From positions 2,971 to 66,970 of the forward strand of contig CAZKNG010000003.1 of NCBI GenBank assembly GCA_964554125.1: DNA of 64,000 nt. Reading direction: 5' to 3'. This DNA is from an uncultured bacterium. Lineage in GTDB: Bacteria; Krumholzibacteriota; Krumholzibacteriia; Krumholzibacteriales; WJIX01. Made by a program: the position numbers and the translations under genes. Each line of letters begins with the position of its first letter. The first letter of the stretch is position 1. Shown here one piece after another: positions 1-16,772 of the stretch. The notes under the pieces are model-generated. The model was not told the origin of the DNA, searched no databases, and saw nothing but the letters and a program-made list of their open reading frames with translations.

Positions 1-1
1 G

Positions 2-433
2 TGTTGACTTCCATACGGGATTTTTAACGCCAATGGTCCAATGGTACTCACCGTCAATTAATCTCTTAACGAAAATATCCATAAGGGAGATATCTTTAAA
101 AAACAAGTACTTTCTGGTTTGAATTCTTATTATCCGCACCTGTCTTTTTTTGAAAGGTCCGGTGTTTTTTTTATATCTTCTTACATAAAATCTGTAACCC
201 TTTAACCAAAATTTCCACCTGCAGAAAAGTAATTTATTTTCATCTTTTTCGGTAATGGTAATATCCAGGTCATTATCCCAGGGTAACAGTCTGTTTTCAC
301 GCACAATTCCCAAAAGTGTGCCGGCTTCGAGAACATAACTTATATTACTGCTTTCAAGTATCTCCGCAACATCCTTGAGCATTTTTATTGCTTTTTTTGC
401 AATTACGCCTGTTAATTTTTTACTGCCGGCCAT
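2..433 (-). CDS. LicD-family protein (phosphocholine/phospho-alcohol transferase for surface glycans), N-terminal part only; the gene runs off the left window edge
   Basis: Not in the ORF track because it has no in-window stop. The reverse complement from ATG at 433 reads MAGSKKLTGVIAKKAIKMLKDVAEILESSNISYVLEAGTLLGIVRENRLLPWDNDLDITI..., with no stop down to position 2. It matches the LicD hallmark LEGGTLLGAVR...PWDDDIDI. Confidence 0.6.
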   Translation of the reverse strand, partial: MAGSKKLTGVIAKKAIKMLKDVAEILESSNISYVLEAGTLLGIVRENRLLPWDNDLDITITEKDENKLLFCRWKFWLKGYRFYVRRYKKNTGPFKKRQVRIIRIQTRKYLFFKDISLMDIFVKRLIDGEYHWTIGVKNPVWKST

Positions 434-447
434 TTAAAATCCCTATG

Positions 448-1491
448 TTATCTTAAGTAACCTTTTCTAAACCAACTATGATAAATTATCTGCATTTTTC
501 TGAACAGATTTAATGGTTTGCTTATTCTAGGAAGAATACCTCTATTCTTATTAACTTCTTCTAAAAATTGGATTATTCTTTCACTACTTTTCCCGTCAAT
601 ATAGGGATTTACATCATTTATATGTTTTTTGATTTGGTCTTCAAAGTTTTCGGAAAAAGCTCTATCCAGTGCTTTCCTCAATTTATCCGCTGAAGTTATA
701 TTTATGCCCTTATCTTCTCTACTTTTTGTCTTATAGGTTATTACGGGTTTTTGCAGTGTCAAAAATTCATAGATCACCGAGGAAGTATCTGAAATTAATA
801 CATCAGATATGTGAAGAAACGGTGTAATATCATAAGTATCAATTAATTTAATGTTTTTATTTTCAGAACTCTTTATTTTTTCTACCAGTTCTTTATTCAT
901 TAATTCATGAAATTTTATTAATAAAAATTCGTTTTCTTTAATATAAGATCCCAAGACCGGTAAGAGTTCTGTGGCAGATTCCATTTTTATGCTGAACGTT
1001 GGAGCGTAGAGAATGATGTTTTTATCTTCCGGAAGATCGAATTTCTTTTTCAAATTTTTTTCTTTATAATTCATAATGTAATCTATTTTTGGCCAACCTG
1101 TTTCTTTAACCAGAAAATAACCATATTTCTTTTGCATCCGGTTAAACCTCTTAGTTACAAATGGTCCACATGTAAAGTAAATATCAAAAAAATGCCTGAT
1201 TTTATAGTGAGATTCCTTCTCCACCCCCAAACCATGGAACAATTGTACTTTTAATCCCGGTAAACGAAAATCCACAAAATTGCCCGGTGATAAAACAAAA
1301 TCAGAATTGAATTTCTTTGCCTCTTCTAATGAATCCAGATTCTTGTTACTATCCCATTCATCGGGAAAAGAAGATTTTACTTTTTCTGAAGTATAAAAAG
1401 CATAATCAATTGTTTTTGATTTACACACCTTAATTAGGGGATCAACTACAGGTATGGAATACAATTTTGCGATATAGAATAATATTTTCAT
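448..1491 (-). CDS. CDP-glycerol glycerophosphotransferase (TagB/TagF family)
   Basis: 347 aa with the C-terminal motifs typical of the TagF family (…LISDTSSVIYEFLTLQKPVI…, YAPTF…). It lies in a glycan gene cluster. Confidence 0.65.
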   Translation of the reverse strand: MKILFYIAKLYSIPVVDPLIKVCKSKTIDYAFYTSEKVKSSFPDEWDSNKNLDSLEEAKKFNSDFVLSPGNFVDFRLPGLKVQLFHGLGVEKESHYKIRHFFDIYFTCGPFVTKRFNRMQKKYGYFLVKETGWPKIDYIMNYKEKNLKKKFDLPEDKNIILYAPTFSIKMESATELLPVLGSYIKENEFLLIKFHELMNKELVEKIKSSENKNIKLIDTYDITPFLHISDVLISDTSSVIYEFLTLQKPVITYKTKSREDKGINITSADKLRKALDRAFSENFEDQIKKHINDVNPYIDGKSSERIIQFLEEVNKNRGILPRISKPLNLFRKMQIIYHSWFRKGYLR

Positions 1492-2534
1492 AATATATTC
1501 AATAATTCTTTAAATTTGTCAAAAACCATTTCCGGAGTAATTCTAAAGGTGTTATCTCTGTCTTTATAATATTCAGTTAGAGTAAAATCCCAATCTCTAA
1601 TATATGTGTGTATTTTTTTATGCCAGGCAGTCCATTTCTTCGGATTGGTTTTCGGCCCGAATATTGTAACGGTCGGAGTTTCCATTGCTACCGCTAAGTG
1701 GTTAATACCTCCATCATTAGAAATATAAACATTCGTTTCTTTCAAAAGGGCACCGGCTTCATTAAAAGTTGTTGGAATTGCAATTACAGGTTTCTCTTTC
1801 ATATTCTCTTTTATATACTCAACATCCTTTTTTTCTCCGGGTCCCCAAAGTAGTACAACTTTAAACTCAGTATTTTGCATGATCAAATCACCTAATTCTG
1901 CAAAATTATCTAAATCCCATTGTTTTGCCAGAACCGGGGTTCCAGGAGAAAATACAACGAATTTGTTATTCTTAAGTCCTATATCAATCAGCCAATTATT
2001 GATTTTTCTGATTGATTCATTCTTAATCTTATAATAAGTATTATGCGGTACTTCTTCAATTCCCAAAGGTTTCAATAAATCAAATTTTGCACATGCATAA
2101 TAACGAAAATTATCGCGTTTCAATTTATAATTATACACCCAATTCCATCTTTTTTGAAACCATCCCAGTCTATATTTTGCGCCGCTATAAAGAGTTATTT
2201 GTGCTGAACCTGTTCCCCGTAATTGATCAATCAATAAATCATACTTTCTTTTTCTTACTAATCTCATTATCCTGAATCGTTCTAAAAGGTATGAAATAGT
2301 TTTTTTCTTTTTTTTCTTCATTAAAACCAGATTGTCTATATTTGGATTGTCTTCTAATAATGTAACATAGGGACTCTGAATTAAGTAATCTAATTGCGCG
2401 TCGGGAAATTTTTCTCTCAAAGATGGTAAATATCCTGTATTTAATAAAATATCACCAAATGGTTTATATTGAATGATCAAGATCTTTTTTATATGTTGCA
2501 GTTCCTGCTCAGGGATTTTATATTTCGGTTTCAT
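1488..2534 (-). CDS. Glycosyltransferase family 9 (ADP-heptose:LPS heptosyltransferase-like)
   Basis: 348 aa. It has a GT9 N-terminus (KKILIIQYKPFGDILLNTGYLPSL) and a C-terminal G-rich ADP-heptose binding region (YISNDGGINHLAVAM). It overlaps the upstream gene by 4 bp. Confidence 0.75.
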   Translation of the reverse strand: MKPKYKIPEQELQHIKKILIIQYKPFGDILLNTGYLPSLREKFPDAQLDYLIQSPYVTLLEDNPNIDNLVLMKKKKKKTISYLLERFRIMRLVRKRKYDLLIDQLRGTGSAQITLYSGAKYRLGWFQKRWNWVYNYKLKRDNFRYYACAKFDLLKPLGIEEVPHNTYYKIKNESIRKINNWLIDIGLKNNKFVVFSPGTPVLAKQWDLDNFAELGDLIMQNTEFKVVLLWGPGEKKDVEYIKENMKEKPVIAIPTTFNEAGALLKETNVYISNDGGINHLAVAMETPTVTIFGPKTNPKKWTAWHKKIHTYIRDWDFTLTEYYKDRDNTFRITPEMVFDKFKELLNIL

Positions 2535-2547
2535 ATTTCTTTCTTAA

Positions 2548-2931
2548 TTATTTTTTCTTATAATCCACATATTCTTTTTCTTCAACTAGATCAGATTTAA
2601 ATTTTAAATTTATTTCCTTTTTTTTTGCAGCTCTTTCATCATTCTCAATATATACACTTCTTGCTAATTTTATGAATTCTTTATCAAATTCTCTCTTAGC
2701 TTCTTTTATTCTTATATCATCTTCAATTTTCCACAATTTGAGATTAACATTTTTCAATTTTAAAAATTCTTTTGATTTTGAATTAATTCCAATTTTATTC
2801 ATGTAACTATATAATTTTTTGTACTCTTTTTTAACATTTTCCAATTTATCAGGATTTTTAAATTTTTCTTTTTTTATTTCTAAAATGGTCACTTTATCAA
2901 CTAATTCACCAATAGATACATCAATTTTCAT
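2548..2931 (-). CDS. Hypothetical lysine-rich small protein (127 aa) embedded between two heptosyltransferase genes
   Basis: An ORF with a predicted coiled-coil, K/E-rich composition. It is co-directional with and tightly spaced to the flanking GT9 genes. It contains an A9 homopolymer in coding sequence (plus-strand T9 at 2618-2626). Confidence 0.45.
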   Translation of the reverse strand: MKIDVSIGELVDKVTILEIKKEKFKNPDKLENVKKEYKKLYSYMNKIGINSKSKEFLKLKNVNLKLWKIEDDIRIKEAKREFDKEFIKLARSVYIENDERAAKKKEINLKFKSDLVEEKEYVDYKKK

Positions 2932-2960
2932 GATTTTTCTCCTTAGAAATTGTTTTTTAT

Positions 2961-3836
2961 TTAATTCAAATATTTTTTACTTCCAATTTTCTTAAGTAAA
3001 ATAGCAATATTCTCAATTACAACTTCATGAGTAATCTCTTTCATACAAGTCATATGTTCACAATCGCCTATTTTTTTATCCGAGTTATAACAAGGAGAAC
3101 AATATATTTTATTTGTGATGTTAATATTTTCTTGATATCCAGTACTTTCTTCTAAGATAACGCCTCCATAAATAATCACCGCTCTCTTTCCCACTGCTTT
3201 GGCAATATGCATTAATCCCCCTTCTAAACCAAAAAAGAATAATGAATTTTTTATAATTGCACCTGGATATCTTATATTTTTGCCTCTTCGGTCAATTACA
3301 TTATCTAAAAGAGTATCATTTTCTAATCCTATTTGCACAAATTTAATTTGCGGAAATGAATTGACCACTTTTTGAAATTTATCAAAACCCCATTCCTTTC
3401 TATTGCCACAAAATCCCTGTTTTCCGGTAGGACAAACAGCTATATAATCAAAATCAAACTCTTCTCTTACAGAATTAATTTCTTTTTCTGACAAATAGAT
3501 TTCAGGAGTCCCTTCAAAATTGAAACCGAAATATTGCATCATTTGCAAATAAACAGATTCGGTTTTATCGGGCCAGATGTGATATTTGGGACGGATAAAT
3601 TTCTTTGTTGTTTTAATATGTCTACTCGTCACCCAATCAGGATATGGATTATTCAAAAAAAGTTCGGGTTTAGATGTTTTAACAATTATTTTTTTATCAG
3701 GGTATTTCTTTCGCACATGAGGCAAAACTGATGACAGGAGTAAACTATCTCCAATTGCGCTTGAAAAACCCTTTATAAATATCGATCTGGGATGGATTAA
3801 ATAATAAATCAGTTTAATGTATTCAAATATTATCAT
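2961..3836 (-). CDS. Glycosyltransferase family 9 (heptosyltransferase-like)
   Basis: 291 aa with the C-terminal GT9 motif …FFFGLEGGLMHIAKAVGKRAVIIYGG…. Confidence 0.7.
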   Translation of the reverse strand: MIIFEYIKLIYYLIHPRSIFIKGFSSAIGDSLLLSSVLPHVRKKYPDKKIIVKTSKPELFLNNPYPDWVTSRHIKTTKKFIRPKYHIWPDKTESVYLQMMQYFGFNFEGTPEIYLSEKEINSVREEFDFDYIAVCPTGKQGFCGNRKEWGFDKFQKVVNSFPQIKFVQIGLENDTLLDNVIDRRGKNIRYPGAIIKNSLFFFGLEGGLMHIAKAVGKRAVIIYGGVILEESTGYQENINITNKIYCSPCYNSDKKIGDCEHMTCMKEITHEVVIENIAILLKKIGSKKYLN

Positions 3837-4918
3837 TTTATTCTACTCATAAAAAATTCTTCAACATCTTCAATCATTTTAGATTCAGTAAAATTATTTT
3901 TTAACGTATTTAATGCATTCTCTTTGAATTTTAAACGTAAGTCTACACTTTCTATTAGAGTTGATATTTTATCGATAAGGGAGTTAATGTTGCCAAAAGG
4001 ATATAAAAAACCATTTTCACCATCTTTAATAATTTCTCTTACTCCTCCTACATCAGTCGCAACTACAGGATTACCAACTGCAAAATATTCAACAATTGAA
4101 TTCGAAAATCCTTCTAATTTAGAAGTTAAAATTGATATATCATGAAGCGAAGAAATTAACATGGGATTTTCTGTAAACCCGTTGAAAATTACTTTTTCTT
4201 GTAGAGAAAGATTTTCAACCATCTCTTTAAGTTTCCACTTTTCCGTTCCATCACCTGTTATTAAAAGAATCCAATTGGGATATTCTGCCGAAATAGTTTT
4301 AAAAGCTTTTATTAAGTGATTAACATATTTAATTTTATGTAATCTGGTAGTTATTCCAATAATATTTTTATCATCAGAAATATTCAGTCTATTTCTTACT
4401 TCATCCAAAGCCTTTTTTCCAGGAAGAAAAGGTTCCCTCCCATTGTAAATAGTTGTAAATTCATTTTTATTCAGCCAGATATTTCCTTCCAATATTTTAT
4501 CAGAAACATAGTTACAAGGAACAATGCTATGTGAAACCAGGTATTTGTGATTAATTTTAGTTTTAAATCTCCTAAAAAAATCATCTTCTCTGCCTATTCT
4601 TCTTATATTAGGGATTTTACAAATTTTTGCCGCAATCCCTCCGATCCCAATCTCTTTTTCGATGTTAGTAAGGATCAAGTCGATATTATTTTTTTTAACA
4701 AAATAAACTAATTTTAAAATTTTAAGTATATTATAATCAGGACCCAGATTTTCTTTAATAATATTCACTTTATTATGAGAATTTTTGGCAAGGGCTGAAT
4801 TTTTATGAGTTAATATCCAGACGTCATGCCCATTCTTTTGAAGGCCAATGGCGGTCCTCTTCATCCAGGTTACAACACCGCGCCAACTTTTTTTTGAAGA
4901 AATATAAAGTATTCTCAT
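3833..4918 (-). CDS. Glycosyltransferase family 4 (GT-B, RfaG/WbuB-like)
   Basis: 361 aa. It has the GT4 C-terminal motif …GFSNSIVEYFAVGNPVVATDVGGVREIIKDGENGFL…. It overlaps its neighbours by 4 bp and 1 bp, consistent with an operon. Confidence 0.75.
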   Translation of the reverse strand: MRILYISSKKSWRGVVTWMKRTAIGLQKNGHDVWILTHKNSALAKNSHNKVNIIKENLGPDYNILKILKLVYFVKKNNIDLILTNIEKEIGIGGIAAKICKIPNIRRIGREDDFFRRFKTKINHKYLVSHSIVPCNYVSDKILEGNIWLNKNEFTTIYNGREPFLPGKKALDEVRNRLNISDDKNIIGITTRLHKIKYVNHLIKAFKTISAEYPNWILLITGDGTEKWKLKEMVENLSLQEKVIFNGFTENPMLISSLHDISILTSKLEGFSNSIVEYFAVGNPVVATDVGGVREIIKDGENGFLYPFGNINSLIDKISTLIESVDLRLKFKENALNTLKNNFTESKMIEDVEEFFMSRIK

Positions 4919-5751
4919 TATCTTTTCATAAATTCATTTTTAGAATATTCTTTAATTATTTTATTTTCAATTTCTATATATTTGTCTTCATAATCTGCTT
5001 CCCTTGTATTTAGATATTCCCAGTATTTAACATAAATTAAGAAATGGTAAAAACCACGCATTAAACTAATTAATAGTCCGTATATTCCGTCTTTATATCC
5101 CTTATATTTAAAATATCTTCTTCTAAATTCGTAAAACCCGCTTTTCATCATTTTAGGAATTGTGAATTTTTTATCTTTTTTAATCATTTTTTCTACTTCA
5201 AAATCAGTGTATCTATTTAACTTATCTATAAAATCTTTGCTGCCAGTATAACCAAAATGATACATTGAATTTTGCAAACCTTTTAAATAATACTTCCTGC
5301 CCTTCGTTTTAAAGTTCCCATGAACTTTATCTGAAGGTGTAACAAATCCTTTCTTAAAAAATCTCGGATGATAATCAGGATACCAACCTGTATGTTTAAT
5401 CCATTTACCAAAAATATGATTCTTATTTGGAATTTCTATAACATCATACTTATCCTCTTCTACTATTTTTCTTAGAGTGTTTGAAAGAGATAAAGGAATT
5501 CTTTCATCAGCATCCACAATAAGAATCCATTCACCATTGCATTTTTCTATACCGTATTTTCTAGCCGGTTCAACAAATCCTACTCGATTAAAAGAATAAA
5601 TATTCTCTGTATAATCTTCGCATATTTCAACAGTTTTATCATCACTGTTCATATCAATAACCACAATTTCATCAGCCCATTTTAGAGTTTGCAGACATGC
5701 TTTAATATTTCTTTCCTCATTAAAAGTATGTACTAGAGCTGTAATATTCAT
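4918..5751 (-). CDS. Glycosyltransferase family 2
   Basis: 277 aa. The N-terminal GT-A fold motifs are ALVHTFNEERNI…, VVIDMNSDDKT and IVDADERIP (a DxD-like motif). Confidence 0.75.
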   Translation of the reverse strand: MNITALVHTFNEERNIKACLQTLKWADEIVVIDMNSDDKTVEICEDYTENIYSFNRVGFVEPARKYGIEKCNGEWILIVDADERIPLSLSNTLRKIVEEDKYDVIEIPNKNHIFGKWIKHTGWYPDYHPRFFKKGFVTPSDKVHGNFKTKGRKYYLKGLQNSMYHFGYTGSKDFIDKLNRYTDFEVEKMIKKDKKFTIPKMMKSGFYEFRRRYFKYKGYKDGIYGLLISLMRGFYHFLIYVKYWEYLNTREADYEDKYIEIENKIIKEYSKNEFMKR

Positions 5752-6857
5752 ATTAGAAATCCTATACTAAATCTTGATAATAATCACTTTTTCTTCACTC
5801 TTTTTTGATATGACCTTAAAAAGTTTTATTATTTTTCTGTTTTTCAAGAATCTTAATTTCATTCTTTTAATTAATGAAAGATTTCTAACTTCTTTTATAA
5901 AGAAATAAGTATATTTTTTAATCCAGTATTCATAATTTTCTTCATTAATTGAAATTTGTTCATCTTTTATCCAATTAATATTACCATTCATGAATTCAGA
6001 ATTTCCATAAACTCCTATCCTATTTTCCTATCTAATATAAAATATTGGTCTTGAAGAAAATATCCCACATCCATTATAGAATATTTAACATCAACGTACT
6101 TGTATATTTACTTCACACCTTGATAACAATGTTATTCCCCATTTGAAAATAAAAACCGGCAACTTATTGGAATAACTTTAAACCCCCAATTATCTAAATA
6201 TGGACCGGAATAACCAATAGTATTAAATCCATTTTCTTTAAAATAATCAACGAATTTATTAATCCATATAAACTGGCGGTAATTTAAAATAAAGTGAGTA
6301 ATTTTGTTTAAGCGCAAAGAAAGATGGTGTATTCTTTAAAAAACTCTTTAGCAAAAGAAAGGAGAATACACCATGCAAGAATTAAACTTCTCTGGCCACA
6401 ATTTATCAGTGGATTTAAAAGAAGTCAAGAGTATGTTCAGGGATGAACTTAACAATGACTGTAGGTATATGGTAAAACGGGCATTTGAGAAGATTATTAA
6501 ATGTAAAGTAATGGGAATTTTCAAAGCACAAAAAGCTGTAAGAAAATCGTTATGAGCCTTTTCTTTTACTTTAATGGTAATTGGAATAACAGTAGAAGAG
6601 AAAGAATAGATCCTATTGCTCATTACTTTAAACAGGCAGCTTAAATGGAGAAATCGAAGAATGCATTATCTTCTTACAAACAATTCTTTACATTACCTGT
6701 CTCTGGGCATTCGAAAATACTGTTCTTTTCCGCATAGATCTTTCAGAGGGGGTTTAGAACGTCTTGTTGCCAAGATGTCTGGCATAATTTATATAAGAAA
6801 CAGGATTCCGTCCACCCGAATTATTAATAGATTAAGATCATAAAGAAGGAGTGCAAG

Positions 6858-8096
6858 ATGGTAAAAATCAAACCATTTAAAGGTCTCCGACCTTCAAAAG
6901 ACAAGGTTAAGGACGTAGCTTCTCCTCCATATGATGTTTTGAATCTGGAAGAAGCGAGAGTAAAGGTCGAAAACCAGCCACATAGTTTCTTACATGTTGT
7001 AAAACCCGAGATCGACCTGCCTAAAAACGTCGATCTTTACGATGATAAGGTTTATCAGAAAGGACGGGAAAATCTGCAAAATCTAATTAAAGAAAAAATT
7101 ATGGTTCAAGACAGTAAAGATTGTTATTACCTATACAAACTGGTCATGGATAATATTTCCGAGGTCGGTTTGGTTGCGTGTGCTTCAATTGAAGACTACG
7201 AAAAGGATGTAATAAAAAAACATGAGCATACTATAGCTATAAAAGAAGCAGATAGAATCAAACATGTAGATATTTTAAACGCCAACACTGGCCCTGTTTT
7301 TCTAACCTACAAGGCCAGAAAAGAGATAGATGAAATTTTTGAAAATGTTATGAGAGATAATCCCGTTTATGATTTTGAAGCTGAAGATGATGTAAAACAT
7401 ACTTTCTGGAAAATTTCGGATGATTCAACTATTGAAAAAATTACCGGGCAATTCAAAGAGATAAATAATCTCTATGTTGCCGATGGACATCATCGCTCGG
7501 CTTCGGGAACTATTGTTGGTCAAAGAAGACGAAAAGAAAATCCTAACCACACCGGCAATGAAGAATACAACTTCTTTTTGAGTGTAATTTTCCCTCATGA
7601 TCAATTATATATTATGGATTACAATCGAGTGGCTAAAGATTTTAACGGTCTGAAGAAAAATGAATTTTTGAATAAAGTTAGAGAAAAATTTGAACTTGAA
7701 CAATCGAAAGTCCCTCTTAAGCCACAAAAAAAGCATCGATTCGGGATGTATTTAGACGGTCAATGGTATAGATTAATTGCAAAAGAAGATAGTTTTGATT
7801 CGAATGACCCTGTAAAATCATTGGATGTCACTATTTTACAGAATAATCTTCTTACTCCTATCTTAAATATCGTAAACCCAAAAAAAGATAAAAAAATAGA
7901 TTTTATTGGTGGAATTCGAGGTTTAAGTGAACTGGAAAGACGTGTGAACGCTGGTGAATCAGTCGCTTTTTCCATGTTTCCCACTTCAATAGAAGAATTA
8001 ATGGAAATCGCCGATGCAGGAAAAATTATGCCGCCTAAATCCACCTGGTTCGAACCTAAACTACGTTCAGGAATTATTGTTCATCTTTTGGATTAG
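6858..8096 (+). CDS. DUF1015 family protein
   Basis: 412 aa. The N-terminus MVKIKPFKGLRPSKDKVKDVASPPYDVL is the characteristic DUF1015 start. The gene has a good RBS (AAGGAG) 7 nt upstream. Confidence 0.7.
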   Translation: MVKIKPFKGLRPSKDKVKDVASPPYDVLNLEEARVKVENQPHSFLHVVKPEIDLPKNVDLYDDKVYQKGRENLQNLIKEKIMVQDSKDCYYLYKLVMDNISEVGLVACASIEDYEKDVIKKHEHTIAIKEADRIKHVDILNANTGPVFLTYKARKEIDEIFENVMRDNPVYDFEAEDDVKHTFWKISDDSTIEKITGQFKEINNLYVADGHHRSASGTIVGQRRRKENPNHTGNEEYNFFLSVIFPHDQLYIMDYNRVAKDFNGLKKNEFLNKVREKFELEQSKVPLKPQKKHRFGMYLDGQWYRLIAKEDSFDSNDPVKSLDVTILQNNLLTPILNIVNPKKDKKIDFIGGIRGLSELERRVNAGESVAFSMFPTSIEELMEIADAGKIMPPKSTWFEPKLRSGIIVHLLD

Positions 8097-8593
8097 TCTC
8101 ATAACTACCTTCCGGAGAGAATTATATCTGCCTTTGGGTTATCATCCTTCTTTGAATTCTGCCGACGTCATCCCGGCTCTACAGGGTCAAGTGCCTACAG
8201 AAGAATAAGAGAGGCGAGGTCACCTGTGGATTTCCAAAAATGAGTTGTACTTTAAACTGGAATTTTCAGATCGATCAATTAGTCCCATTTGCCGGGTGAG
8301 GTGATAACTCGCCCGGGAATCTGAAACTTCTCTAAATAAACTTAACGCCAGAGCTTGACACAAACTATGCCACCGTCGAAATCGGCATCTACTTTTCTTC
8401 CGGAAATACTTGCAAAGGGATGTTAATTTGATGATTATTAATTGTGGCAGTTTCCTTTTATTAATGTTAGGATTATCTTATAACTATACTATACAGTCGT
8501 TTATAGAAGGGAACTGCTATTCTAATGAATTGTTCTGACTATATCAATTATGAAAATAAATTAAACACTTGAAGGTATTTGGAGTAATTTTTT

Positions 8594-9925
8594 ATGAATA
8601 TATTCTTTTTAACATCTGCAGCACCAAAGAGAGCTGGATTTGCCACATCGGAAAAAAGACCGCCTCTTGGCTTAGGATATCTTATGGCAACTCTCAAGAA
8701 AAAAAATCATAATCTATTTTTCAGCGATGAGTATTTAAGACCTTCAAATATTTTAGAAACAGATTTTTTAGAAAAAAATGATATAAATTTTGTTGGAATA
8801 TACTCAAATACTATATGTTATCCTTCTACTTTAAAAATGTTTGAAATTCTTAATGAGAAAAGGATAAACGAAGAATGGCATGGCAAAATAATGGTTGGCG
8901 GTCCGCATACATCAGTTGCTTATAATAAAATTCCGGAATATGTTGACTATATAGTAATTGGAGAAGGCGAAATTTCCGTTCCAAAGATAATTAATGGAGA
9001 AATTAAAGATAGAATTATCCATGGTGAAAAAGTTGAGGATATGGATGCTTTGCCTTTACCGGCATGGGAAGAATTTATTTACAGACCGTATGATTGGAGC
9101 TCTCCATGGTTTCCGGAAACATATCCAATATACACTTTAAATACAAGTCGTGGCTGCCCTTTTGATTGTACGTTTTGTTCTGTAAAAAAATTCTGGGGAA
9201 ACAAGTATAAATACATGAGTGCTCCCAGAATTGTAAATGATATTGAATATATGATAAAGACTTATGGTGCTAAAGGGATATATTTTAGAGAGGATCATTT
9301 TACATTAAATAAAAACAGGGTTGTGGAATTCTGCAACTTGCTTTTAAAGAAAAATATAAAAATTGATTGGTTTTGCGAATCGAGAGTTGACAATTTGAAT
9401 AACTTGGAATATCAGAAATTGATGTCCAAAGCAGGTTGCAGGGCTTTATACATAGGAGTTGAAAGTGGTAGCCCGAGAATGTTGGAATTTTATAAAAAGG
9501 GTGAAACTGTAGAACAATTTATAGAAAGTTTTAAAATATCAAAAAAAGCGGGAATAAAAACTTATGCAAGTTTTGTCGTGGGATTTCCTACTGAAACAGA
9601 AAAAGATATTAAATTAACAAACGAATTAATAGAAAGAATTAAGCCGGATTTTTATTCAAAGAATATTTTCCTCGGCATTCCCGGTAGCGAATTATACGAT
9701 TATTTAAAAGAAAATAAATTATATGAATATGAAGATAGTTCAGGAATTTTATATCCTAAAGGTTATTTAAAAAATGTAAAAAAATATTATAATAATAGTA
9801 GGTATTATAAAGTTTATGATAGAAATGGAAACAAAATAGATCCTAATAGAAGGAAACCGATATGGAAAAGGTCTTTTAGAAAAGAACTAAAAAGAGTATT
9901 TGGAAAAAGTTCAAAATGCATGTAG
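8594..9925 (+). CDS. B12-binding-domain radical SAM enzyme (class B rSAM)
   Basis: 443 aa. It has an N-terminal Rossmann-like cobalamin-binding region (…VGIYSNT…MVGGPHTS…) followed by a CxxxCxxC cluster (RGCPFDCTFCSV) and radical-SAM core motifs. Confidence 0.75.
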   Translation: MNIFFLTSAAPKRAGFATSEKRPPLGLGYLMATLKKKNHNLFFSDEYLRPSNILETDFLEKNDINFVGIYSNTICYPSTLKMFEILNEKRINEEWHGKIMVGGPHTSVAYNKIPEYVDYIVIGEGEISVPKIINGEIKDRIIHGEKVEDMDALPLPAWEEFIYRPYDWSSPWFPETYPIYTLNTSRGCPFDCTFCSVKKFWGNKYKYMSAPRIVNDIEYMIKTYGAKGIYFREDHFTLNKNRVVEFCNLLLKKNIKIDWFCESRVDNLNNLEYQKLMSKAGCRALYIGVESGSPRMLEFYKKGETVEQFIESFKISKKAGIKTYASFVVGFPTETEKDIKLTNELIERIKPDFYSKNIFLGIPGSELYDYLKENKLYEYEDSSGILYPKGYLKNVKKYYNNSRYYKVYDRNGNKIDPNRRKPIWKRSFRKELKRVFGKSSKCM

Positions 9926-10914
9926 ATGGTAATAATATTGATATTAGCGTTATAATGCCTGTTTATAACGCTCAAAAACACTTGAATGATGCAATAAATA
10001 GCATATTGTCCCAGACTTTAAATAATTTTGAGTTTATAATAATTGACGATTTCTCTACTGATTCAACCAAAGAAATAATTAATTGTTTTTTAAAAAAAGA
10101 TTCCAGAATCAGATATATAGAAAATGAAGAACAATTAGGTGTTACCAGGAGTTTGAATATTGGTATAGAGTTGGCAAAAGGAAAATATATCGCAAGGATG
10201 GATACAGATGACATTAGTTTGCCTGAAAGATTTATAAAACAGTTTGATTTTATGGAAAAAAATCCTGATGTAGGTGTATGCGGGTCTTATTATGAAATAT
10301 TTGGATCTAGAGAGAAAATTTTAAAAAATCCAGTTAATCATGATAAAATAAGAACCAGGTTATTTTTTAAACCATGTATTGGGCATCCAACAGTAATGAT
10401 GAGGTCTGAAATATTAAAGAAAGTAAAATATAATGAGAAATTCACTTCTGCACAAGATTATGATTTATGGGCTAGATTAGGAGAGATCACAAAGTTGTAT
10501 AATTATCCTGAAATCCTGCTTAAATATAGAAGTCACGATAAACAAATAAGCACGAAATCTAATACCCTCCAGACAAATATGGCTAATGAAGTGAGAAAAT
10601 ATTACCTGGAGAAACTGAATATTTCTCCTAATCAGAAGGAGTTGCTGGCATATAACTTCTTGTGCGACAATGAATATGATAAAGTAGATTTGAATAGCTT
10701 AGAGAGTTTTTTTTATGAAGTAATTTTAAAAAATAGAGAAATAATTTATTTTCCTATAAAAGAATTTGAGAAAATGATTATTTTGAAGTATTGGAGAGTG
10801 TGTAAAGAAAAAGGGGGGGAAGGAGTTAAAAGCTTTAGAAATAGTAAGTTATCAAATAATATACCATATCCTTTTTCAATATATATAAAATCACTTCTAT
10901 ATTCGATATTTTAA
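9916..10914 (+). CDS. Glycosyltransferase family 2
   Basis: 332 aa with the motifs ISVIMPVYNAQKHL…, FEFIIIDDFSTDST and ARMDTDDIS. It overlaps the upstream rSAM gene by 10 bp, which suggests translational coupling. Confidence 0.75.
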   Translation: MHVDGNNIDISVIMPVYNAQKHLNDAINSILSQTLNNFEFIIIDDFSTDSTKEIINCFLKKDSRIRYIENEEQLGVTRSLNIGIELAKGKYIARMDTDDISLPERFIKQFDFMEKNPDVGVCGSYYEIFGSREKILKNPVNHDKIRTRLFFKPCIGHPTVMMRSEILKKVKYNEKFTSAQDYDLWARLGEITKLYNYPEILLKYRSHDKQISTKSNTLQTNMANEVRKYYLEKLNISPNQKELLAYNFLCDNEYDKVDLNSLESFFYEVILKNREIIYFPIKEFEKMIILKYWRVCKEKGGEGVKSFRNSKLSNNIPYPFSIYIKSLLYSIF

Positions 10915-11114
10915 AGGGATTTGCTCTTTATGTGTTTGGCAAATTCAACCAATAATTGCAATTGAGTCATTATGCGGCCTTCCTTGAACAATATCCATTG
11001 AAAATCTCATCAGTTGGTTCATAATAAAGACGGCTGACCTTTTTCTCTTTAACCTTTTTTAAATTGCACTTGTTATTTGAAATCAAAAATTTAAAAATTC
11101 AGATTTTATCCGTA

Positions 11115-11148
11115 TAAAAAAGGGGATCCCTTATTGAGGACCCCCTTC
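11115..11148 (-). terminator. Rho-independent terminator downstream of the porin gene
   Basis: The minus strand reads GGAAGGGGGTCC…GGATCCCCTT followed by TTTTTTATACGG. Confidence 0.55.
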
Positions 11149-11178
11149 CTTCGAACTGTTTCCCGGCAGCAGATCTTC

Positions 11179-12447
11179 CTATCTTATTGCCGCTTTAAGC
11201 GCAAACTGCACCCGGAAGCAGTCATATTCATCAGAGTCTGTTGTGGTAGTTACTCCTCCGCTGTTTTCTCTTGTAGTCCACTTTGTCTTCAGATATGAAA
11301 ATTCTAACATACCTGTAATATTATCTGTTATCCCGTACATCGCGTTCGCGAAGATAAGGGAGTTCATATCGCGGAATCCTGTGCTCCCGCCTTTCGGAAG
11401 ATCATATTCATCTTCGTCCGGGTCGTCGAAAGAATAACCTGTGTTAAAAGTCAACCTGGAAGAGGGCTTCACTGAAAGCATCCCCCATCCACCCATTGTG
11501 GGAAGCGGCTCATATATATCGTCTGTGTTCTGAAGGGCGCCTCCGAAATAAGTCTTAAGCGCCTGACCTATAAAGTATTCACCCTTGATCGATATATGTT
11601 TGTTGAATCTGAGCTCTAAATCACCGTTAAATGACCATGAATCGATACTTTCTTCCGTGACTTTTTCCGGTGAAGCTGTCTCATCTGTTCTATTATATTT
11701 CTCCTGTCCGTAATGACCGGATACTCCGAGTGAGAGCTTTCCTTCTTCAGAGAATTCAGATGCGATTCCAACCCTTCCCTGTACTGCGGGCATTGCTGCG
11801 TCGGCGCCGTTGTCAACACCGTCTCCAGCGTTTACATTTATAGTGTCGTTGTAACCAATGCTGAAATCTCCGCCCATATTTCTGGTAACGGCAAGATCCA
11901 GCAAAACCTCAGCTCCTCCGTTAATATCTGTCCATGTAGAGAATCTCACCTGGGGTCTTCTGTATCCGATATTCCCTTCGCCCCATGCCACACTGTAATT
12001 TACTGTCTTCGGCACCAGAGGGGAGATGACATCCCAGGTCTGACCCGCGAGAACAGACCATTTCTTACCTGCCATCTTGAAATAGGCGTGTCTCAGCATA
12101 GGGGTTGCCTTATTCTCAGCGCTTGCCCCGCCTCCGTAGAAATCGAATTCCAGGGTAGCCTGTGTTTTTACACATTCTTCATTCCAGAAAAAGTCGAAAC
12201 CCAACCTGCTCTCCCTGGTACTGAAATAGAGGGCGTTGTCAGCTTCATCATATCTCGGAACGTAGATATGAAAATTACCCGGATAGATCCGGGCGTTGTC
12301 ATAGGCAATGTCGGATTTGAAGTAGCCGTGGAATTTGAATTGATATTTTCCGCATTTCTTAGCGCACTCCCCGCCGCTGACATCCAGCGCAGGAAGGGAC
12401 AAAGCGAAAACGGCTATAAGTAAATAGAGTGTTATTTTATTCCTCAT
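11179..12447 (-). CDS. Outer-membrane beta-barrel protein / putative porin
   Basis: 422 aa. It has a signal peptide (MRNKITLYLLIAVFALSLPALDVSG), alternating amphipathic beta-strand patterns, and an AGGAG RBS. Confidence 0.55.
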   Translation of the reverse strand: MRNKITLYLLIAVFALSLPALDVSGGECAKKCGKYQFKFHGYFKSDIAYDNARIYPGNFHIYVPRYDEADNALYFSTRESRLGFDFFWNEECVKTQATLEFDFYGGGASAENKATPMLRHAYFKMAGKKWSVLAGQTWDVISPLVPKTVNYSVAWGEGNIGYRRPQVRFSTWTDINGGAEVLLDLAVTRNMGGDFSIGYNDTINVNAGDGVDNGADAAMPAVQGRVGIASEFSEEGKLSLGVSGHYGQEKYNRTDETASPEKVTEESIDSWSFNGDLELRFNKHISIKGEYFIGQALKTYFGGALQNTDDIYEPLPTMGGWGMLSVKPSSRLTFNTGYSFDDPDEDEYDLPKGGSTGFRDMNSLIFANAMYGITDNITGMLEFSYLKTKWTTRENSGGVTTTTDSDEYDCFRVQFALKAAIR

Positions 12448-12574
12448 ACTTCTCCTCTCTTTCCGGCAGCTTTAAAACCATCCCCCCGCCTTCGGGGCGC
12501 GATTCAAGAAAGCTGCGCGTAGATAAGTTTTCAGGGTCATAACAAGACCCTGAACAAATAGATTACTTTCCTGT

Positions 12575-16711: not shown

Positions 16712-16772
16712 CTTTTCTTGCTTGATATAGCATACCCCTTTTTCGAATATCTTAAGCTTAAATAAGTACTTA

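What the first reader, a model, noticed from the sequence alone, without database searches (positions are those of the whole stretch)
1..10914. AT-rich glycan/LPS-core island with composition distinct from the rest of the window
The first ~11 kb are visibly more AT-rich than everything downstream, where genes from the porin onward are clearly GC-richer. The region encodes LicD (partial), a TagF-like glycerophosphotransferase, two GT9, a GT4 and a GT2, plus the downstream rSAM/GT2 pair. Together with LicD and TagF-like phospho-alcohol transferases, this points to a strain-variable, probably horizontally exchanged outer-core/O-chain decoration locus that adds heptose, glycerol-phosphate and possibly phosphocholine.
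Basis: partly seen in the sequence, partly recalled or inferred. Interest (0 to 1): 0.5.

Follow-up and report, generated by a model that had tools for sequence, protein, structure and literature searches.

The report
Swapped-in AT-rich LPS sugar-gene island
The first 11 kb of this window are a real AT-rich block of cell-surface sugar-building genes that an uncultured Krumholzibacteriaceae bacterium acquired from AT-rich bacteria of other phyla, at a site where its closest relative carries a different set; this is a familiar kind of surface-glycan cassette swap, not a new kind of system.

Summary
Observation confirmed. Window 1-~11,100 has 30.4% GC against 44.2% for the other 53 kb. The single change point is at 11,121. 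GC3 of the 9 island genes is 0.14-0.29; GC3 of the 41 backbone genes is 0.39-0.53. The Pfam family calls hold.

The island starts exactly after the terminator of a conserved porin-like gene and runs at least 2.9 kb beyond the window's left edge.

A close relative (backbone 86-90% nt identical, same gene order) carries different low-GC glycosyltransferase genes at this site.

Two findings point to foreign origin:
- GT4, short GT9-like, DUF6165, GT9, TagF-like, LicD, nucleotidyltransferase and TagF-like lie in the same order (an ATP-grasp gene intervening in L099), beside msbA-like and tagD genes, in uniformly AT-rich genomes labelled Cloacimonadota or Delongbacteria.
- The DUF1015 gene still has a degraded 3' fragment of asnS upstream, as in Cloacimonadota-type contigs (80% nt identity).

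Most likely this is a horizontally exchanged LPS-core/outer-glycan cassette adding heptose, other sugars and phospho-alcohol groups. The chemistry is inferred: heptose and glycerol-phosphate have indirect support, phosphocholine none. This is a known phenomenon in a little-studied phylum, so interest is modest.

The parts
1..433 (-). LicD-family phospho-alcohol transferase: the N-terminal 144 codons only. The gene runs off the left end of the window; it is 201 aa in full on L002.
   Evidence: Translation. The full-length copy on L002 scores 56.8 bits on Pfam PF04991 against a cut-off of 22.6. A DND motif is at aa 53. It is 46-63% identical to LicD genes in the L095, L096, L098 and L099 modules.
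448..1491 (-). TagF-like CDP-alcohol phosphotransferase (single domain, 347 aa).
   Evidence: Pfam PF04464 scores 81.6 bits against a cut-off of 22.1. The nearest solved structures are Cps3D and TarL. NCBIfam TarF and TarL equivalog cut-offs are not reached. It is 55-58% identical to the gene at the same position in L095-L099.
1488..2534 (-). GT9a, a GT9-family glycosyltransferase (heptosyltransferase-like).
   Evidence: Pfam PF01075 scores 110.8 bits against a cut-off of 22. The best NCBIfam models are RfaQ and heptosyltransferase III, at 130 bits against a cut-off of 170, so no equivalog is reached. PDB matches are 3tov, 1psw and 2gt1. Homologues are 72-76% identical in unnamed contigs and 54-61% (full-length) in contigs labelled Delongbacteria, Cloacimonadota, Fermentibacteraceae or Calditrichaeota.
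2548..2931 (-). DUF6165 small protein. It lies upstream of the GT9 gene in every copy of the module seen, directly adjacent except in L099, where an ATP-grasp gene intervenes.
   Evidence: Pfam PF19662 scores 44.9 bits against a cut-off of 27. Synteny and 64-68% identity in L095-L099. It has the lowest GC3 in the window, 0.14. No paper in the library mentions DUF6165.
2961..3836 (-). GT9b, a short (291 aa) and divergent GT9-like protein.
   Evidence: Pfam PF01075 scores 31.9 bits over the C-terminal 62 aa only. It is colinear with GT9a at the N-terminal GD..LP..R.K.PD motif and the C-terminal (D/E)GG..H.A.A motif. It is 52% identical to the 285-aa gene at the same position in Delongbacteria locus L099. 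The structure prediction was unusable.
3833..4918 (-). GT4-family glycosyltransferase.
   Evidence: Pfam PF00534 scores 132.6 bits and PF13692 scores 102.4 bits. An E-x7-E motif is at aa 269. It is 43% identical to the GT4 at the same position in L099 and 23-24% identical to the positional counterpart in the close relative L092.
4918..5751 (-). GT2a, a GT2-family glycosyltransferase and the first gene of the leftward operon.
   Evidence: Pfam PF00535 scores 58.5 bits. A DAD motif is at aa 80. It is 34% identical to the GT2 at the corresponding position in L092.
5752..6654 (.). AT-rich spacer between the two divergent arms; presumed promoter region. It holds only unassignable small ORFs.
   Evidence: The intergenic stretch 5752-6857 that contains this spacer has GC 0.288. 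The small ORFs have no Pfam hit, and there is no Rfam hit or tRNA. Promoter-like hexamers are no more frequent than in shuffled sequence. ORFs from related loci leave no remnant here.
6655..6843 (+). asnS', a degraded remnant of the last 50-60 codons of asparaginyl-tRNA synthetase. It is the scar of the transfer that brought in DUF1015.
   Evidence: tblastn with the L086 AsnRS (aa 385-420) gives 61% identity at window 6703-6810, E = 3.6e-8. The L090 AsnRS gives E = 2e-3. Read by eye, the window has RKYCSFPHRSFRGGLERLVAKMSGIIYIRNRIPSTRIINRLRS* against [43 protein letters not shown] in L086. Stop codons lie upstream of 6616.
6858..8096 (+). DUF1015 ('SerBK'-family) gene: intact, probably a metabolic passenger rather than a glycan enzyme.
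   Evidence: Pfam PF06245 scores 388 bits. blastn of L086:2643-3987 against window 6751-8095 gives 80.4% identity. It is 82% aa identical to P0002, and 18 of the 19 organism-named homologues are Cloacimonadota. dN/dS is 0.08, and GC3 is 0.286 against 0.295 in L086. The proposed function, a serine kinase that can substitute for SerB, comes from preprint 10.1101/2024.10.14.618325.
8097..8593 (.). Spacer between DUF1015 and the rSAM gene, with no recognisable feature.
   Evidence: GC 0.374. No remnant hits. No Rfam hit.
8594..9925 (+). B12-binding-domain radical SAM enzyme, presumed to tailor a sugar (methylation or deoxygenation).
   Evidence: Pfam PF04055 scores 88.6 bits and PF02310 scores 34.2 bits. 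The CPFDCTFC cluster motif is at aa 188. The nearest solved structure is AprD4, 6fd2, E = 8e-25. No NCBIfam equivalog is reached. The gene is frameshifted by a 17-bp deletion in another sample.
9916..10914 (+). GT2b, a GT2-family glycosyltransferase overlapping the rSAM gene by 10 bp.
   Evidence: Pfam PF00535 scores 130.5 bits. A DTD motif is at aa 96. The best NCBIfam models, EpsE and TuaG, are below their cut-offs.
10915..11090 (.). Island-side intergenic DNA, ending at the homology breakpoint with the close relative.
   Evidence: The window/L092 alignment is conserved down to about 11,089 and unalignable beyond it. The GC change point is at 11,121.
11116..11145 (-). Intrinsic terminator of the porin-like gene (GC-rich hairpin plus T-tract), conserved in the relative. 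It marks the fixed edge of the variable locus.
   Evidence: Terminator scan hit at 11132-11120. The hairpin GGGGGTCCTCAATAAGGGATCCCC followed by TTTTTT aligns with L092.
11179..12447 (-). Porin-like outer-membrane beta-barrel gene: the conserved backbone flank.
   Evidence: GC 0.464 and GC3 0.487. It is 84% aa identical and syntenic in L092. The PF13505 match is weak (25 bits, below the cut-off).
31442..32897 (-). Backbone genes outside the island: a split hldE (rfaE domain I at 31920-32897, domain II at 31442-31942). This is the native supply of ADP-heptose for GT9 enzymes.
   Evidence: NCBIfam TIGR02198 scores 378.6 against a cut-off of 345. TIGR02199 scores 191.7 against a cut-off of 181.5. 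GC is backbone-like.

Best explanation
WHAT IT IS. The AT-rich block is a horizontally acquired, cassette-type locus for building the outer part of a lipid-anchored surface glycan, most likely the LPS core or lipo-oligosaccharide. The host is an uncultured Krumholzibacteriaceae bacterium. The block occupies a replaceable chromosomal site that begins just after the terminator of a conserved porin-like gene.

SHOWN:
- The block is compositionally foreign at all three codon positions.
- The nearest available relative has a different, also low-GC, set of glycosyltransferase genes at the same site.
- The block is a mosaic of two arms. The leftward operon is GT2, GT4, short GT9-like, DUF6165, GT9, TagF-like, LicD, nucleotidyltransferase, sulfotransferase, TagF-like. 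From GT4 onward this reproduces a gene order that is native, next to msbA-like and tagD genes, in uniformly AT-rich genomes labelled Cloacimonadota or Delongbacteria. The rightward arm is asnS', DUF1015, B12-radical SAM, GT2. It carries a truncated asnS fragment fused upstream of DUF1015, exactly as in Cloacimonadota-type contigs, so at least that piece arrived as foreign DNA cut inside asnS.

INFERRED MECHANISM:
- Whole-cassette replacement by homologous recombination in conserved flanks. The porin side is seen. The far side is not seen and may be msbA.
- On the cytoplasmic face, the GT9 enzymes add heptose from ADP-heptose made by the host's own rfaE genes.
- GT4 and GT2 enzymes extend the oligosaccharide.
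- The nucleotidyltransferase activates a phospho-alcohol. The two small TagF-like enzymes and LicD transfer it: glycerol-phosphate is the likeliest, ribitol-phosphate or phosphocholine are possible.
- The sulfotransferase and the radical SAM enzyme tailor sugars.
- An MsbA-type exporter flips the product.
- DUF1015 is probably a metabolic passenger.

The likely benefit is a change of surface antigen or phage receptor.
For: COMPOSITION. 0.304 against 0.441 GC with no overlap, change point at 11,121, and GC1, GC2 and GC3 all shifted.

REAL JUNCTION. L001 spans it at 99.93% identity.

HOST IDENTITY. The C69 protein equals HMA75923.1, labelled 'Candidatus Krumholzibacteriaceae bacterium'. Named Obg relatives are Krumholzibacteriota, Latescibacteria, Bacteroidota or unclassified 'bacterium'; none is Cloacimonadota.

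SITE-SPECIFIC REPLACEMENT. L092 is 86-90% nt identical through fabF...C69-porin and the terminator. Beyond that it is unrelated: a 317-aa gene, GT32-like, a GT2-LicD fusion, GT2, GT4, GT2, GT4, then msbA-like. Only GT2a and GT4 have positional homologues there, at 34% and 23-24% aa.

NO ORTHOLOGS IN THE RELATIVE. No protein from that genome appears in the DUF1015 or GT9a homologue lists, whereas its C69 shares a 90% cluster with the window's.

asnS'-DUF1015 SCAR. E = 3.6e-8 for the remnant, 80.4% nt identity to L086, and the housekeeping context aaRS-DUF1015-MiaB-like-TrpRS-SecG in donor-type contigs of 0.34-0.36 GC. DUF1015 GC3 is 0.286, equal to the donor type (0.295) and unlike the host (0.44).

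NATIVE MODULES ELSEWHERE. L095, L096 and L097 match at 54-74% aa (33-34% for the NTP-transferase) and 68% nt over 3 kb, at 0.35-0.37 GC throughout. L098 (Cloacimonadota-labelled, 0.36 GC) holds the module between ruvCA/rsmB and tatD/thiF. L099 (Delongbacteria-labelled, 0.30 GC) includes GT4 at 43% and GT9b at 52%. The TagF2 and nucleotidyltransferase pair is 69% and 54% identical in L094, an 87-kb contig of uniform 0.29 GC.

FUNCTION. Pfam families all score above their cut-offs. Both rfaE domains pass equivalog cut-offs in the backbone. tagD passes its equivalog cut-off in L098 and L099 and sits beside an msbA-like gene. PDB neighbours fit these assignments.

KNOWN PRECEDENT. Low-GC, horizontally exchanged surface-polysaccharide loci are described in PMC3715488 and PMC7305143.
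Against: - The left boundary and left flank were not seen, so cassette replacement by flanking recombination is inferred from one edge only.
- The donor phylum rests on source labels of MAG proteins and on unlabelled contigs. L086 and L095-L097 carry no taxon name.
- The closest sampled homologues are only 69-82% identical, so no actual donor is in hand and the transfer need not be recent (dS to L086 is about 1.2).
- No island protein reaches an NCBIfam equivalog cut-off, so every substrate assignment is at family level.
- No Kdo transferase, tagD, msbA, licA, licB or licC lies in the 14.1 kb seen.
- GT9 and TagF-like enzymes also occur in non-LPS pathways.
- The island has not drifted toward host GC, and at 0.30 it is even lower than most homologous modules (0.35-0.37). 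This could mean recent arrival from an unsampled 0.30-GC donor, or some local force that keeps it AT-rich.
- The rSAM gene is frameshifted in one population, so not every gene need be functional.
Confidence: 0.72

Rival explanations
1. Native, vertically inherited LPS locus. The genes have always been in this lineage, and their low GC reflects a local mutational or selective regime (for example low expression, or selection for AT-rich silenceable DNA) rather than foreign origin. The difference from the relative then reflects fast divergence and gene loss.
For: Surface-glycan loci are AT-rich in many bacteria, and the reason is debated (PMC3715488). The relative L092 also has a low-GC block at this site. 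GT2a and GT4 have distant positional homologues there. No integrase, tRNA or flanking repeats were found.
Against: The asnS fragment fused to DUF1015, at 80% nt identity to a contig with housekeeping context, cannot arise by local divergence. Backbone proteins are 83-94% identical to L092, yet most island genes have no counterpart there and the two that do are 23-34% identical. The relative's genome contributes no hit to the DUF1015 or GT9a lists. The same ordered 8-gene block sits in other phyla at 43-65% identity (26% for the NTP-transferase). GC1, GC2 and amino-acid composition are also shifted, which implies long residence in an AT-rich genome.
Confidence: 0.1
2. The same horizontally acquired cassette, but the product is not LPS core. 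It could be a capsule-like or teichoic-acid-like phospho-alcohol polymer, a glycolipid, or protein glycosylation.
For: The nearest solved relatives of the TagF-like protein are capsule and teichoic-acid polymerases, Cps3D and TarL. The best LicD model is a diacylglycerol cholinephosphotransferase. No WaaA (Kdo transferase) or lipid A gene lies inside the island. GT9a misses all heptosyltransferase equivalog cut-offs.
Against: Two GT9-type genes plus a native ADP-heptose pathway. In L095, L096, L098 and L099 the module lies downstream of an msbA-like exporter gene, directly adjacent in L096. No capsule export genes (Kps, Wza, Wzc), Wzx/Wzy or initiating phosphoglycosyl transferase lie in 14.1 kb. 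The TagF-like proteins are 347-365 aa, the size of primases or oligomerases rather than the multi-domain polymerases.
Confidence: 0.15
3. Assembly or binning chimera: an AT-rich contig end from another organism was joined to a Krumholzibacteriaceae chromosome fragment.
For: The GC step is very sharp. The island genes' best homologues come from other phyla. In assembly ERZ27257089 the island is broken into three contigs.
Against: L001 from that assembly crosses the step by 580 bp with 5 mismatches in 7.2 kb. The step coincides with a terminator and with the exact point where homology to L092 ends, and L092 itself continues there into a different low-GC block on a 1.57-Mb contig, also seen in Logan contig L093. 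In the window DUF1015 lacks the housekeeping neighbours it would have in a true Cloacimonadota genome fragment.
Confidence: 0.02
4. Integrated mobile element (prophage, ICE, or integrated plasmid) carrying glycan genes.
For: Atypical composition and presence/absence between relatives.
Against: No integrase, transposase, tRNA or flanking repeat in the window part or in L002. Phage and plasmid collections give only 87-225-bp hits at 66-81% identity, three of the five inside DUF1015.
Confidence: 0.02

Closest known systems
Low-GC, horizontally exchanged O-antigen/capsule (rfb, cps) and LPS outer-core (waa) loci of Enterobacterales and Leptospira (PMC3715488, PMC7305143, PMC9736851)
   Same: A block of glycosyltransferase and sugar-tailoring genes, far more AT-rich than the genome, sits at a fixed site between conserved genes. 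Its gene content differs between related lineages, positional alleles are deeply divergent, and it is a mosaic of segments with different histories.
   Different: The host is an uncultured Krumholzibacteriaceae bacterium. The likely sources are other phyla, not related species. There are no Wzx/Wzy, Wzm/Wzt or initiating transferase genes. GT9 is combined with TagF-like and LicD genes. The block carries a non-glycan passenger (DUF1015) together with a tRNA-synthetase gene scar.
The msbA-tagD-...-DUF6165-GT9-TagF-like-LicD-nucleotidyltransferase-TagF-like module seen here in Cloacimonadota-labelled (L098), Delongbacteria-labelled (L099) and unnamed AT-rich contigs (L095-L097). As far as the searched library shows, it is undescribed.
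   Same: Gene order matches, and per-gene identity is 43-74% from GT4 or DUF6165 through the second TagF-like gene, apart from the NTP-transferase (26-48%) and a weak TagF2 match in L098.
   Different: In those genomes the module has the same GC as its housekeeping flanks and lies downstream of msbA-like (and, in L098/L099, tagD) genes. In the window it is 14 GC points below the genome. No msbA or tagD is visible. It has a sulfotransferase (as in L095) and a leading GT2, and it is joined to an inverted asnS'-DUF1015-rSAM-GT2 arm.
Haemophilus/Neisseria-type lipo-oligosaccharide biosynthesis with lic1 (licABCD) phosphocholine decoration. Basis: established knowledge, not tested here.
   Same: Heptosyltransferase-based core extension without an O-chain, plus a LicD-family transferase and a nucleotidyltransferase that could supply a CDP-activated head group.
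   Different: No licA (choline kinase) or licB (transporter) is present. The nucleotidyltransferase matches no LicC equivalog. No phase-variable repeats were seen. Two TagF-like genes are present.
Wall teichoic acid primases and oligomerases TagB/TarF, and TagF-like capsule polymerases (Cps3D 8qoy, TarL 8va1)
   Same: A Glyphos_transf catalytic domain. A CDP-glycerol synthase (tagD) is linked in the orthologous modules.
   Different: The context is a diderm with GT9 and msbA. The proteins are single-domain, 347-365 aa. TarF and TarL equivalog scores are far below their cut-offs (40-43 bits against 550-1000).

Membership tests
Compositionally atypical genomic island (horizontally acquired DNA) | Base composition and codon usage significantly different from the host genome, with a sharp boundary. 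| tested here: met
   0.304 against 0.441 GC. GC3 is 0.14-0.29 against 0.39-0.53 with no overlap. The change point is at 11,121.
Compositionally atypical genomic island (horizontally acquired DNA) | Absent from, or different in, close relatives at the same chromosomal site. | tested here: met
   L092 and L093: same flank at 86-90% nt identity, different gene set beyond about 11,089. L006 has no porin or island.
Compositionally atypical genomic island (horizontally acquired DNA) | Mobility hallmarks: integrase or transposase, a tRNA target, flanking direct repeats. | tested here: not met
   No tRNA, no meaningful repeats, and no integrase or transposase family among island or L002 proteins. The left end was not seen.
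CAZy GT9 / Pfam PF01075 (LPS heptosyltransferase family) | A significant match to the family model across both Rossmann-like halves. | tested here: met
   GT9a scores 110.8 bits over aa 86-309, and its PDB matches (3tov, 1psw, 2gt1) align over aa 15-298. GT9b gives only a weak C-terminal match (31.9 bits) plus motif colinearity.
Specific heptosyltransferases I/II/III (WaaC, WaaF, WaaQ) | A score above the NCBIfam equivalog cut-off. | tested here: not met
   The best is heptosyltransferase III, 130.2 against 170.2. WaaC and WaaF models score 52-98 bits, far below their cut-offs.
TagF/TarF-type CDP-glycerol glycerophosphotransferases (PF04464) | A family-model match, and CDP-glycerol supply (tagD) in the locus. 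| tested here: inconclusive
   The PF04464 match is met: 81.6 bits, and 45.9 bits for the second copy on L002. tagD is not in the 14.1 kb seen. It is present and above its cut-off in the orthologous modules L098 and L099. TarF and TarL equivalogs are not reached.
lic1-type phosphocholine decoration (LicA, LicB, LicC, LicD) | LicD together with choline kinase, a choline transporter and CTP:phosphocholine cytidylyltransferase. | tested here: not met
   LicD-family membership is met (56.8 bits). No kinase or transporter is present, and the nucleotidyltransferase matches only generic sugar-1-phosphate nucleotidylyltransferase models below their cut-offs.
O-antigen gene cluster (Wzx/Wzy- or ABC-dependent) | An initiating phosphoglycosyl transferase, plus flippase and polymerase or Wzm/Wzt. 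| tested here: not met
   None is among the 9 complete island genes in the window, the LicD gene that spans the window edge, or the 3 further genes on L002. DNA further left was not seen.
Class B (cobalamin-domain) radical SAM enzymes | An N-terminal B12-binding domain plus a radical SAM core with a CxxxCxxC motif. | tested here: met
   PF02310 scores 34.2 bits and PF04055 scores 88.6 bits. CPFDCTFC is at aa 188. The nearest structure is AprD4. The reaction type was not determined.
DUF1015 / proposed SerBK serine kinase | A full-length match to PF06245. The functional claim rests on the preprint's complementation of a different family member. | tested here: met
   388 bits over positions 1-325 of 325. 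The function was not tested here.

The most novel reading that the evidence does not exclude
The conserved gene set msbA-like, tagD, ..., DUF6165, GT9, TagF-like, LicD, nucleotidyltransferase, TagF-like could be a so-far undescribed pathway, widespread in FCB-group candidate phyla (labels seen: Cloacimonadota, Delongbacteria, Fermentibacteraceae, Calditrichia). It would put teichoic-acid-like glycerol-, ribitol- or choline-phosphate units onto a heptose-containing lipid A core, with DUF6165 as an obligatory partner of the GT9 enzyme. In this reading the window records capture of that whole pathway by a Krumholzibacteriaceae genome through inter-phylum transfer, replacing its native outer core.
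Probability: 0.3. Interest if true: 0.55.

Novelty: new member of a known kind. Interest (0 to 1): 0.33.

Why it matters
- It shows that cassette-style replacement of AT-rich surface-glycan loci, well documented in enterobacteria, also operates in an uncultured, sparsely sampled phylum.
- It shows that the imported DNA can come from other phyla. The truncated asnS fragment is an unusually direct physical scar of such a transfer.
- For people who bin or annotate metagenomes, it is a warning. A 14-point GC drop with foreign best hits at a contig end can be genuine biology rather than a chimera.
- It flags a conserved, uncharacterised GT9/DUF6165/TagF/LicD module next to msbA that may define the LPS core chemistry of several candidate phyla.

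Tried and rejected
- LEFT BOUNDARY. I could not reach it. The look-up of the window's TagF-like protein returned only L002 (+2.9 kb) and a short JGI contig. The one metagenome scan, anchored on the leftmost known gene, returned a different organism, L094.
- MOBILITY SIGNATURES. No tRNA, no Rfam family, and only chance-level AT-rich repeats.
- ops/JUMPstart ELEMENT (GGCGGTAG). None in the island.
- PROMOTER AND TERMINATOR SCAN. Promoter-like sites are no more frequent than in shuffled sequence. Only the porin terminator is informative.
- OTHER PSEUDOGENE REMNANTS. I searched 5752-6860, 8090-8600 and 10900-11185 with all ORFs of nine related loci. Only asnS' was found.
- PHAGE AND PLASMID ORIGIN. 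Only 87-225-bp hits at 66-81% identity, three of the five inside DUF1015.
- NCBIfam. No island protein reaches an equivalog cut-off, so no specific enzyme names can be given.
- GT9b STRUCTURE. Single-sequence AlphaFold2 gave pLDDT 40.8, which is unusable, so no fold search was run. The PDB sequence search of GT9b gave only marginal, unrelated hits.
- CODON LOG-LIKELIHOOD RATIO. It was trained on the same two gene sets, so it is circular and I do not use it as evidence. GC1, GC2 and GC3 are independent of that.
- LicD FRAGMENT IN MY LOCAL BLASTS. It was taken one base out of frame (432 instead of 433), so the 'LicD_part' rows should be ignored. The full-length L002 copy was used instead.

Full report

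Yes. In 1-kb windows the first 11 kb average 0.304 GC (range 0.250-0.352). The remaining 53 kb average 0.441 (range 0.388-0.488). The ranges do not overlap (Mann-Whitney p = 2e-7). No 5-kb stretch of the remainder falls below 0.419. A single-change-point likelihood scan puts the step at 11,121 (likelihood-ratio chi-square 738). A 200-bp profile shows the rise from 0.30 to 0.45 between 10,900 and 11,300.

Codon positions tell the same story. The nine complete island ORFs have GC3 of 0.14-0.29, against 0.39-0.53 for 41 backbone ORFs. GC1 and GC2 are shifted as well (0.37/0.27 against 0.51/0.38). The island proteins are enriched in K, N, I, Y and F. That is what long residence in an AT-rich genome produces, not a recent local bias.

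- LicD (partial)
- a TagF-like Glyphos_transf protein
- a clear GT9
- a GT4
- a GT2
- a B12-domain radical SAM gene overlapping a second GT2

The "second GT9" (2961-3836) is a short, divergent GT9-like protein. It scores 31.9 bits on the C-terminal part only, but it is colinear with GT9a at both signature motifs.

2. IS IT AN ARTEFACT?

No. A contig from another assembly (L001; ERZ27257089) matches window 10,597-17,750 with 5 mismatches and crosses the step. Other contigs tile the island with 0-2 mismatches (L005 also carries a 17-bp deletion). One of them (L002) extends it 2,947 bp beyond window position 1, adding the rest of LicD, a nucleotidyltransferase, a sulfotransferase and a second TagF-like gene, all at 0.31-0.33 GC. 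The visible island is therefore about 14.1 kb. Its left end was not reached.

3. WHOSE GENOME IS IT?

The 44% GC part is ordinary chromosome:
- plsX-fabHDGF, rnc, dprA, obg
- a type IV pilus cluster
- a lipid A acyltransferase family gene
- a split hldE

The window's C69 dipeptidase is NCBI HMA75923.1, labelled 'Candidatus Krumholzibacteriaceae bacterium', on a 73,058-bp contig. Named relatives of Obg are Krumholzibacteriota, Latescibacteria, Bacteroidota or unclassified 'bacterium', and none is Cloacimonadota.

A close relative exists: GCA_034520215.1, 'Candidatus Krumholzibacteriota bacterium', on a 1.57-Mb contig (L092; also Logan contig L093). Its gene order from fabF through rnc, DUF4954, SIS, RlmL, 2-hydroxyacid dehydrogenase, C69 and the 422-aa porin-like gene is the same as in the window. 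Identity is 86-90% at the nucleotide level and 83-94% at the protein level.

The alignment stays good through the porin stop codon and a GC-rich hairpin with a T-tract (window about 11,145-11,116). It dissolves by about 11,089. That coincides with the compositional change point.

Beyond that point the relative has, in order:
- a 317-aa gene with backbone-like GC3
- a ~6-kb low-GC block (0.26-0.39): a GT32-like gene, a GT2-LicD fusion, GT2, GT4, GT2 and GT4
- an msbA-like gene with backbone-like GC3

Only the window's GT2a and GT4 have positional counterparts there, at 34% and 23-24% identity. Nothing else is shared.

The relative's proteins are in the searched database, since its C69 shares a 90% cluster with the window's. 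Yet no protein from a 1.57-Mb contig appears among the best 120 homologues of DUF1015 (all at least 64% identical) or of GT9a (all at least 53%).

A more distant relative (L006; C69 82% identical, RlmL-dehydrogenase-C69 syntenic, GC 0.41-0.45) has neither the porin nor any island gene.

So the site is occupied by different cassettes in related species. This is variation between species at about 88% nucleotide identity. I have no evidence for variation between strains.

5. WHERE DID THE GENES COME FROM?

(a) DUF1015 and the asnS scar.
- The best homologues of DUF1015 are 64-82% identical. Of the 19 that carry an organism name, 18 are Cloacimonadota (including Candidatus Tenebribacter).
- In those contigs the gene has a housekeeping setting: an aminoacyl-tRNA synthetase (AsnRS or IleRS), DUF1015, sometimes DUF480, a MiaB-like enzyme, TrpRS and SecG. 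The closest contigs have 0.34-0.36 GC.
- In the window, the 190 bp upstream of DUF1015 still encode the last 50-60 residues of AsnRS in degraded form. tblastn gives E = 3.6e-8, and the ...GLERLV...IRxxIP...INRLR(S/P) tail is readable by eye.
- DNA identity to contig L086 (80.4% over 1,345 bp) begins inside that fragment and ends at the DUF1015 stop codon.
- This is a physical scar of a DNA segment cut inside asnS in a donor with asnS-DUF1015 synteny.
- The gene is intact. dN/dS against L086 is 0.08, and its GC3 (0.286) equals the donor type (0.295), not the host.
- A recent preprint proposes that DUF1015 proteins are serine kinases able to replace SerB (10.1101/2024.10.14.618325). The gene is therefore most simply a metabolic passenger.

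(b) The left arm.
- GT9a's closest homologues (72-76%) lie in unnamed contigs.
- In L095, L096 and L097 they sit in the same order as in the window: DUF6165, GT9, TagF-like, LicD, (sulfotransferase), TagF-like, nucleotidyltransferase. Identity is 54-74% aa (33-34% for the NTP-transferase) and 68% nt over 3 kb. In L095 and L096 an msbA-like gene lies just upstream. These loci are 0.35-0.37 GC throughout.
- In a Cloacimonadota-labelled 255-kb contig (L098, GC 0.36) the module lies between ruvCA/rsmB and tatD/thiF. It starts with msbA-like and tagD genes.
- In a Delongbacteria-labelled contig (L099, GC 0.30 throughout, next to rpoC) the order is GT4, short GT9-like, DUF6165, an ATP-grasp gene, GT9, TagF-like, LicD, nucleotidyltransferase, TagF-like. 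Apart from the ATP-grasp gene this matches the window gene for gene. Identities are 43, 52, 65, 61, 57, 46, 26 and 47%.
- The only JGI-metagenome relative of the TagF2 and nucleotidyltransferase pair (69% and 54%) is on an 87-kb contig of uniform 0.29 GC.
- The module is therefore at home in AT-rich FCB-group genomes and is compositionally foreign only here.
- The donor phylum is inferred from database labels. No actual donor is sampled: the best identities are 69-82%, and dS to L086 is about 1.2.

6. WHAT IT MOST LIKELY DOES

Shown:
- The family memberships above.
- Tight operon packing of the left arm, with 1-4-bp overlaps.
- Catalytic motifs: DxD in both GT2s and in LicD, E-x7-E in GT4, CxxxCxxC in the rSAM.
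- Structural neighbours: heptosyltransferases for GT9a, Cps3D and TarL for the TagF-like protein, and the sugar-modifying AprD4 for the rSAM.
- Native ADP-heptose synthesis in the backbone. rfaE domain I scores 378.6 against a cut-off of 345. Domain II scores 191.7 against 181.5.
- tagD above its equivalog cut-off next to msbA-like in the orthologous modules (179.7 and 177.0 against 165.4).

Inferred:
- Assembly takes place on lipid A-Kdo at the cytoplasmic face.
- Heptose is added by the GT9 enzymes.
- GT4 and GT2 extend the chain.
- Phospho-alcohol substituents are transferred from a CDP-activated donor by the two small TagF-like enzymes and LicD.
- Sulfation and a radical-SAM sugar modification follow.
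- An MsbA-type transporter exports the product.

The absence of Wzx/Wzy, Wzm/Wzt and an initiating transferase in 14.1 kb argues for a core or lipo-oligosaccharide-type product rather than an O-chain.

No island protein reaches an NCBIfam equivalog cut-off, so the substrates stay at family level. Glycerol-phosphate has indirect support. Phosphocholine has none beyond LicD-family membership.

7. RIVALS
- A chimera is very unlikely (sections 2 and 4).
- A classical mobile element is unlikely. No integrase, tRNA or repeats were found, and phage and plasmid collections give nothing beyond 87-225-bp hits at 66-81% identity, three of the five inside DUF1015.
- A purely vertical history with local AT pressure cannot explain the asnS scar or the non-orthologous content.
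- A non-LPS product (capsule-like or teichoic-like polymer, or a glycolipid) remains possible at roughly 15%.

8. COMPARISON WITH WHAT IS KNOWN

Low-GC surface-polysaccharide loci exchanged by horizontal transfer at fixed chromosomal sites are textbook in Salmonella, E. coli, Klebsiella and Leptospira (PMC3715488, PMC7305143, PMC9736851). This locus behaves the same way.

It differs in four respects:
- the host phylum
- apparently inter-phylum sources
- the GT9/DUF6165/TagF/LicD content
- the passenger gene with its scar

The library holds no paper that mentions DUF6165, or that combines heptosyltransferase, LicD and glycerophosphotransferase. The module therefore appears to be uncharacterised.

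9. VERDICT
Its chemistry is plausible but unproven.
- I class the locus as a new member of a known kind and score its interest at 0.33.
- The most novel reading still open is that the msbA-linked module is an undescribed lipid A-core phospho-alcohol decoration pathway of FCB-group candidate phyla, captured here across phyla (probability about 0.3).

Noticed in passing
window 9213-9229 (L005:3373): In JGI sample 3300026197 the otherwise identical contig L005 lacks 17 bp (ACATGAGTGCTCCCAGA) inside the B12-radical SAM gene, splitting it into 209- and 224-aa ORFs. This is either a population in which the gene is being lost, or an assembly error.
   Followed up: partly
window 2602-2611 and 10597-10612: In assembly ERZ27257089 the island is split into three contigs that meet at these two points with only 10-16 bp of overlap, one inside DUF6165 and one inside GT2b. 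This could mark strain-level alternative joins or coverage drops. Unexplained.
   Followed up: no
window 31442-32897: hldE is split into two overlapping ORFs: a heptose-7-phosphate kinase at 31920-32897 and a heptose-1-phosphate adenylyltransferase at 31442-31942. Both score above their NCBIfam cut-offs. A lipid A acyltransferase family gene lies close by at 33622-34539.
   Followed up: partly
window 12692-14302: Outside Krumholzibacteriota-type relatives (74-92% identity), the C69 dipeptidase next to the porin has its next-best matches (about 64-73%) mostly in Bacteroidales/Bacteroidota MAGs. This suggests an older exchange with Bacteroidota. The nearest GTDB representative (L006) is labelled Latescibacterota.
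   Followed up: no
window 40032-41315: A full-length bacterial serpin (Pfam E = 5e-109) lies on the opposite strand to its neighbours, in a kilobase of slightly lower GC (0.39).
   Followed up: no
L092:13277-14230: The close relative has a 317-aa gene with backbone-like GC3 (0.43) and no Pfam family, between the porin and its own glycan block. It has no homologue anywhere in the window.
   Followed up: partly
window 5752-6654: A 0.9-kb AT-rich stretch between the divergent arms has no assignable feature. Two small ORFs, 5767-5991 (-) and 6373-6555 (+), are called as genes in other assemblies but match no family and no related locus.
   Followed up: partly
L098:3188-12557 and L099:1-12554: In Cloacimonadota- and Delongbacteria-labelled genomes, an msbA-like gene and a tagD gene (above its equivalog cut-off) head the DUF6165-GT9-TagF-LicD module. 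L099 additionally has an EptA-like sulfatase-family gene, a polysaccharide pyruvyl transferase and an ATP-grasp gene inside it.
   Followed up: partly
window 46245-51946 and 60080-63985: A type IV pilus/T2SS-like cluster: secretin, PilO, PilM, prepilin peptidase, a PilC-like protein and two PilB/PilT-like ATPases. A sigma-54 two-component pair lies at 56928-60056.
   Followed up: no
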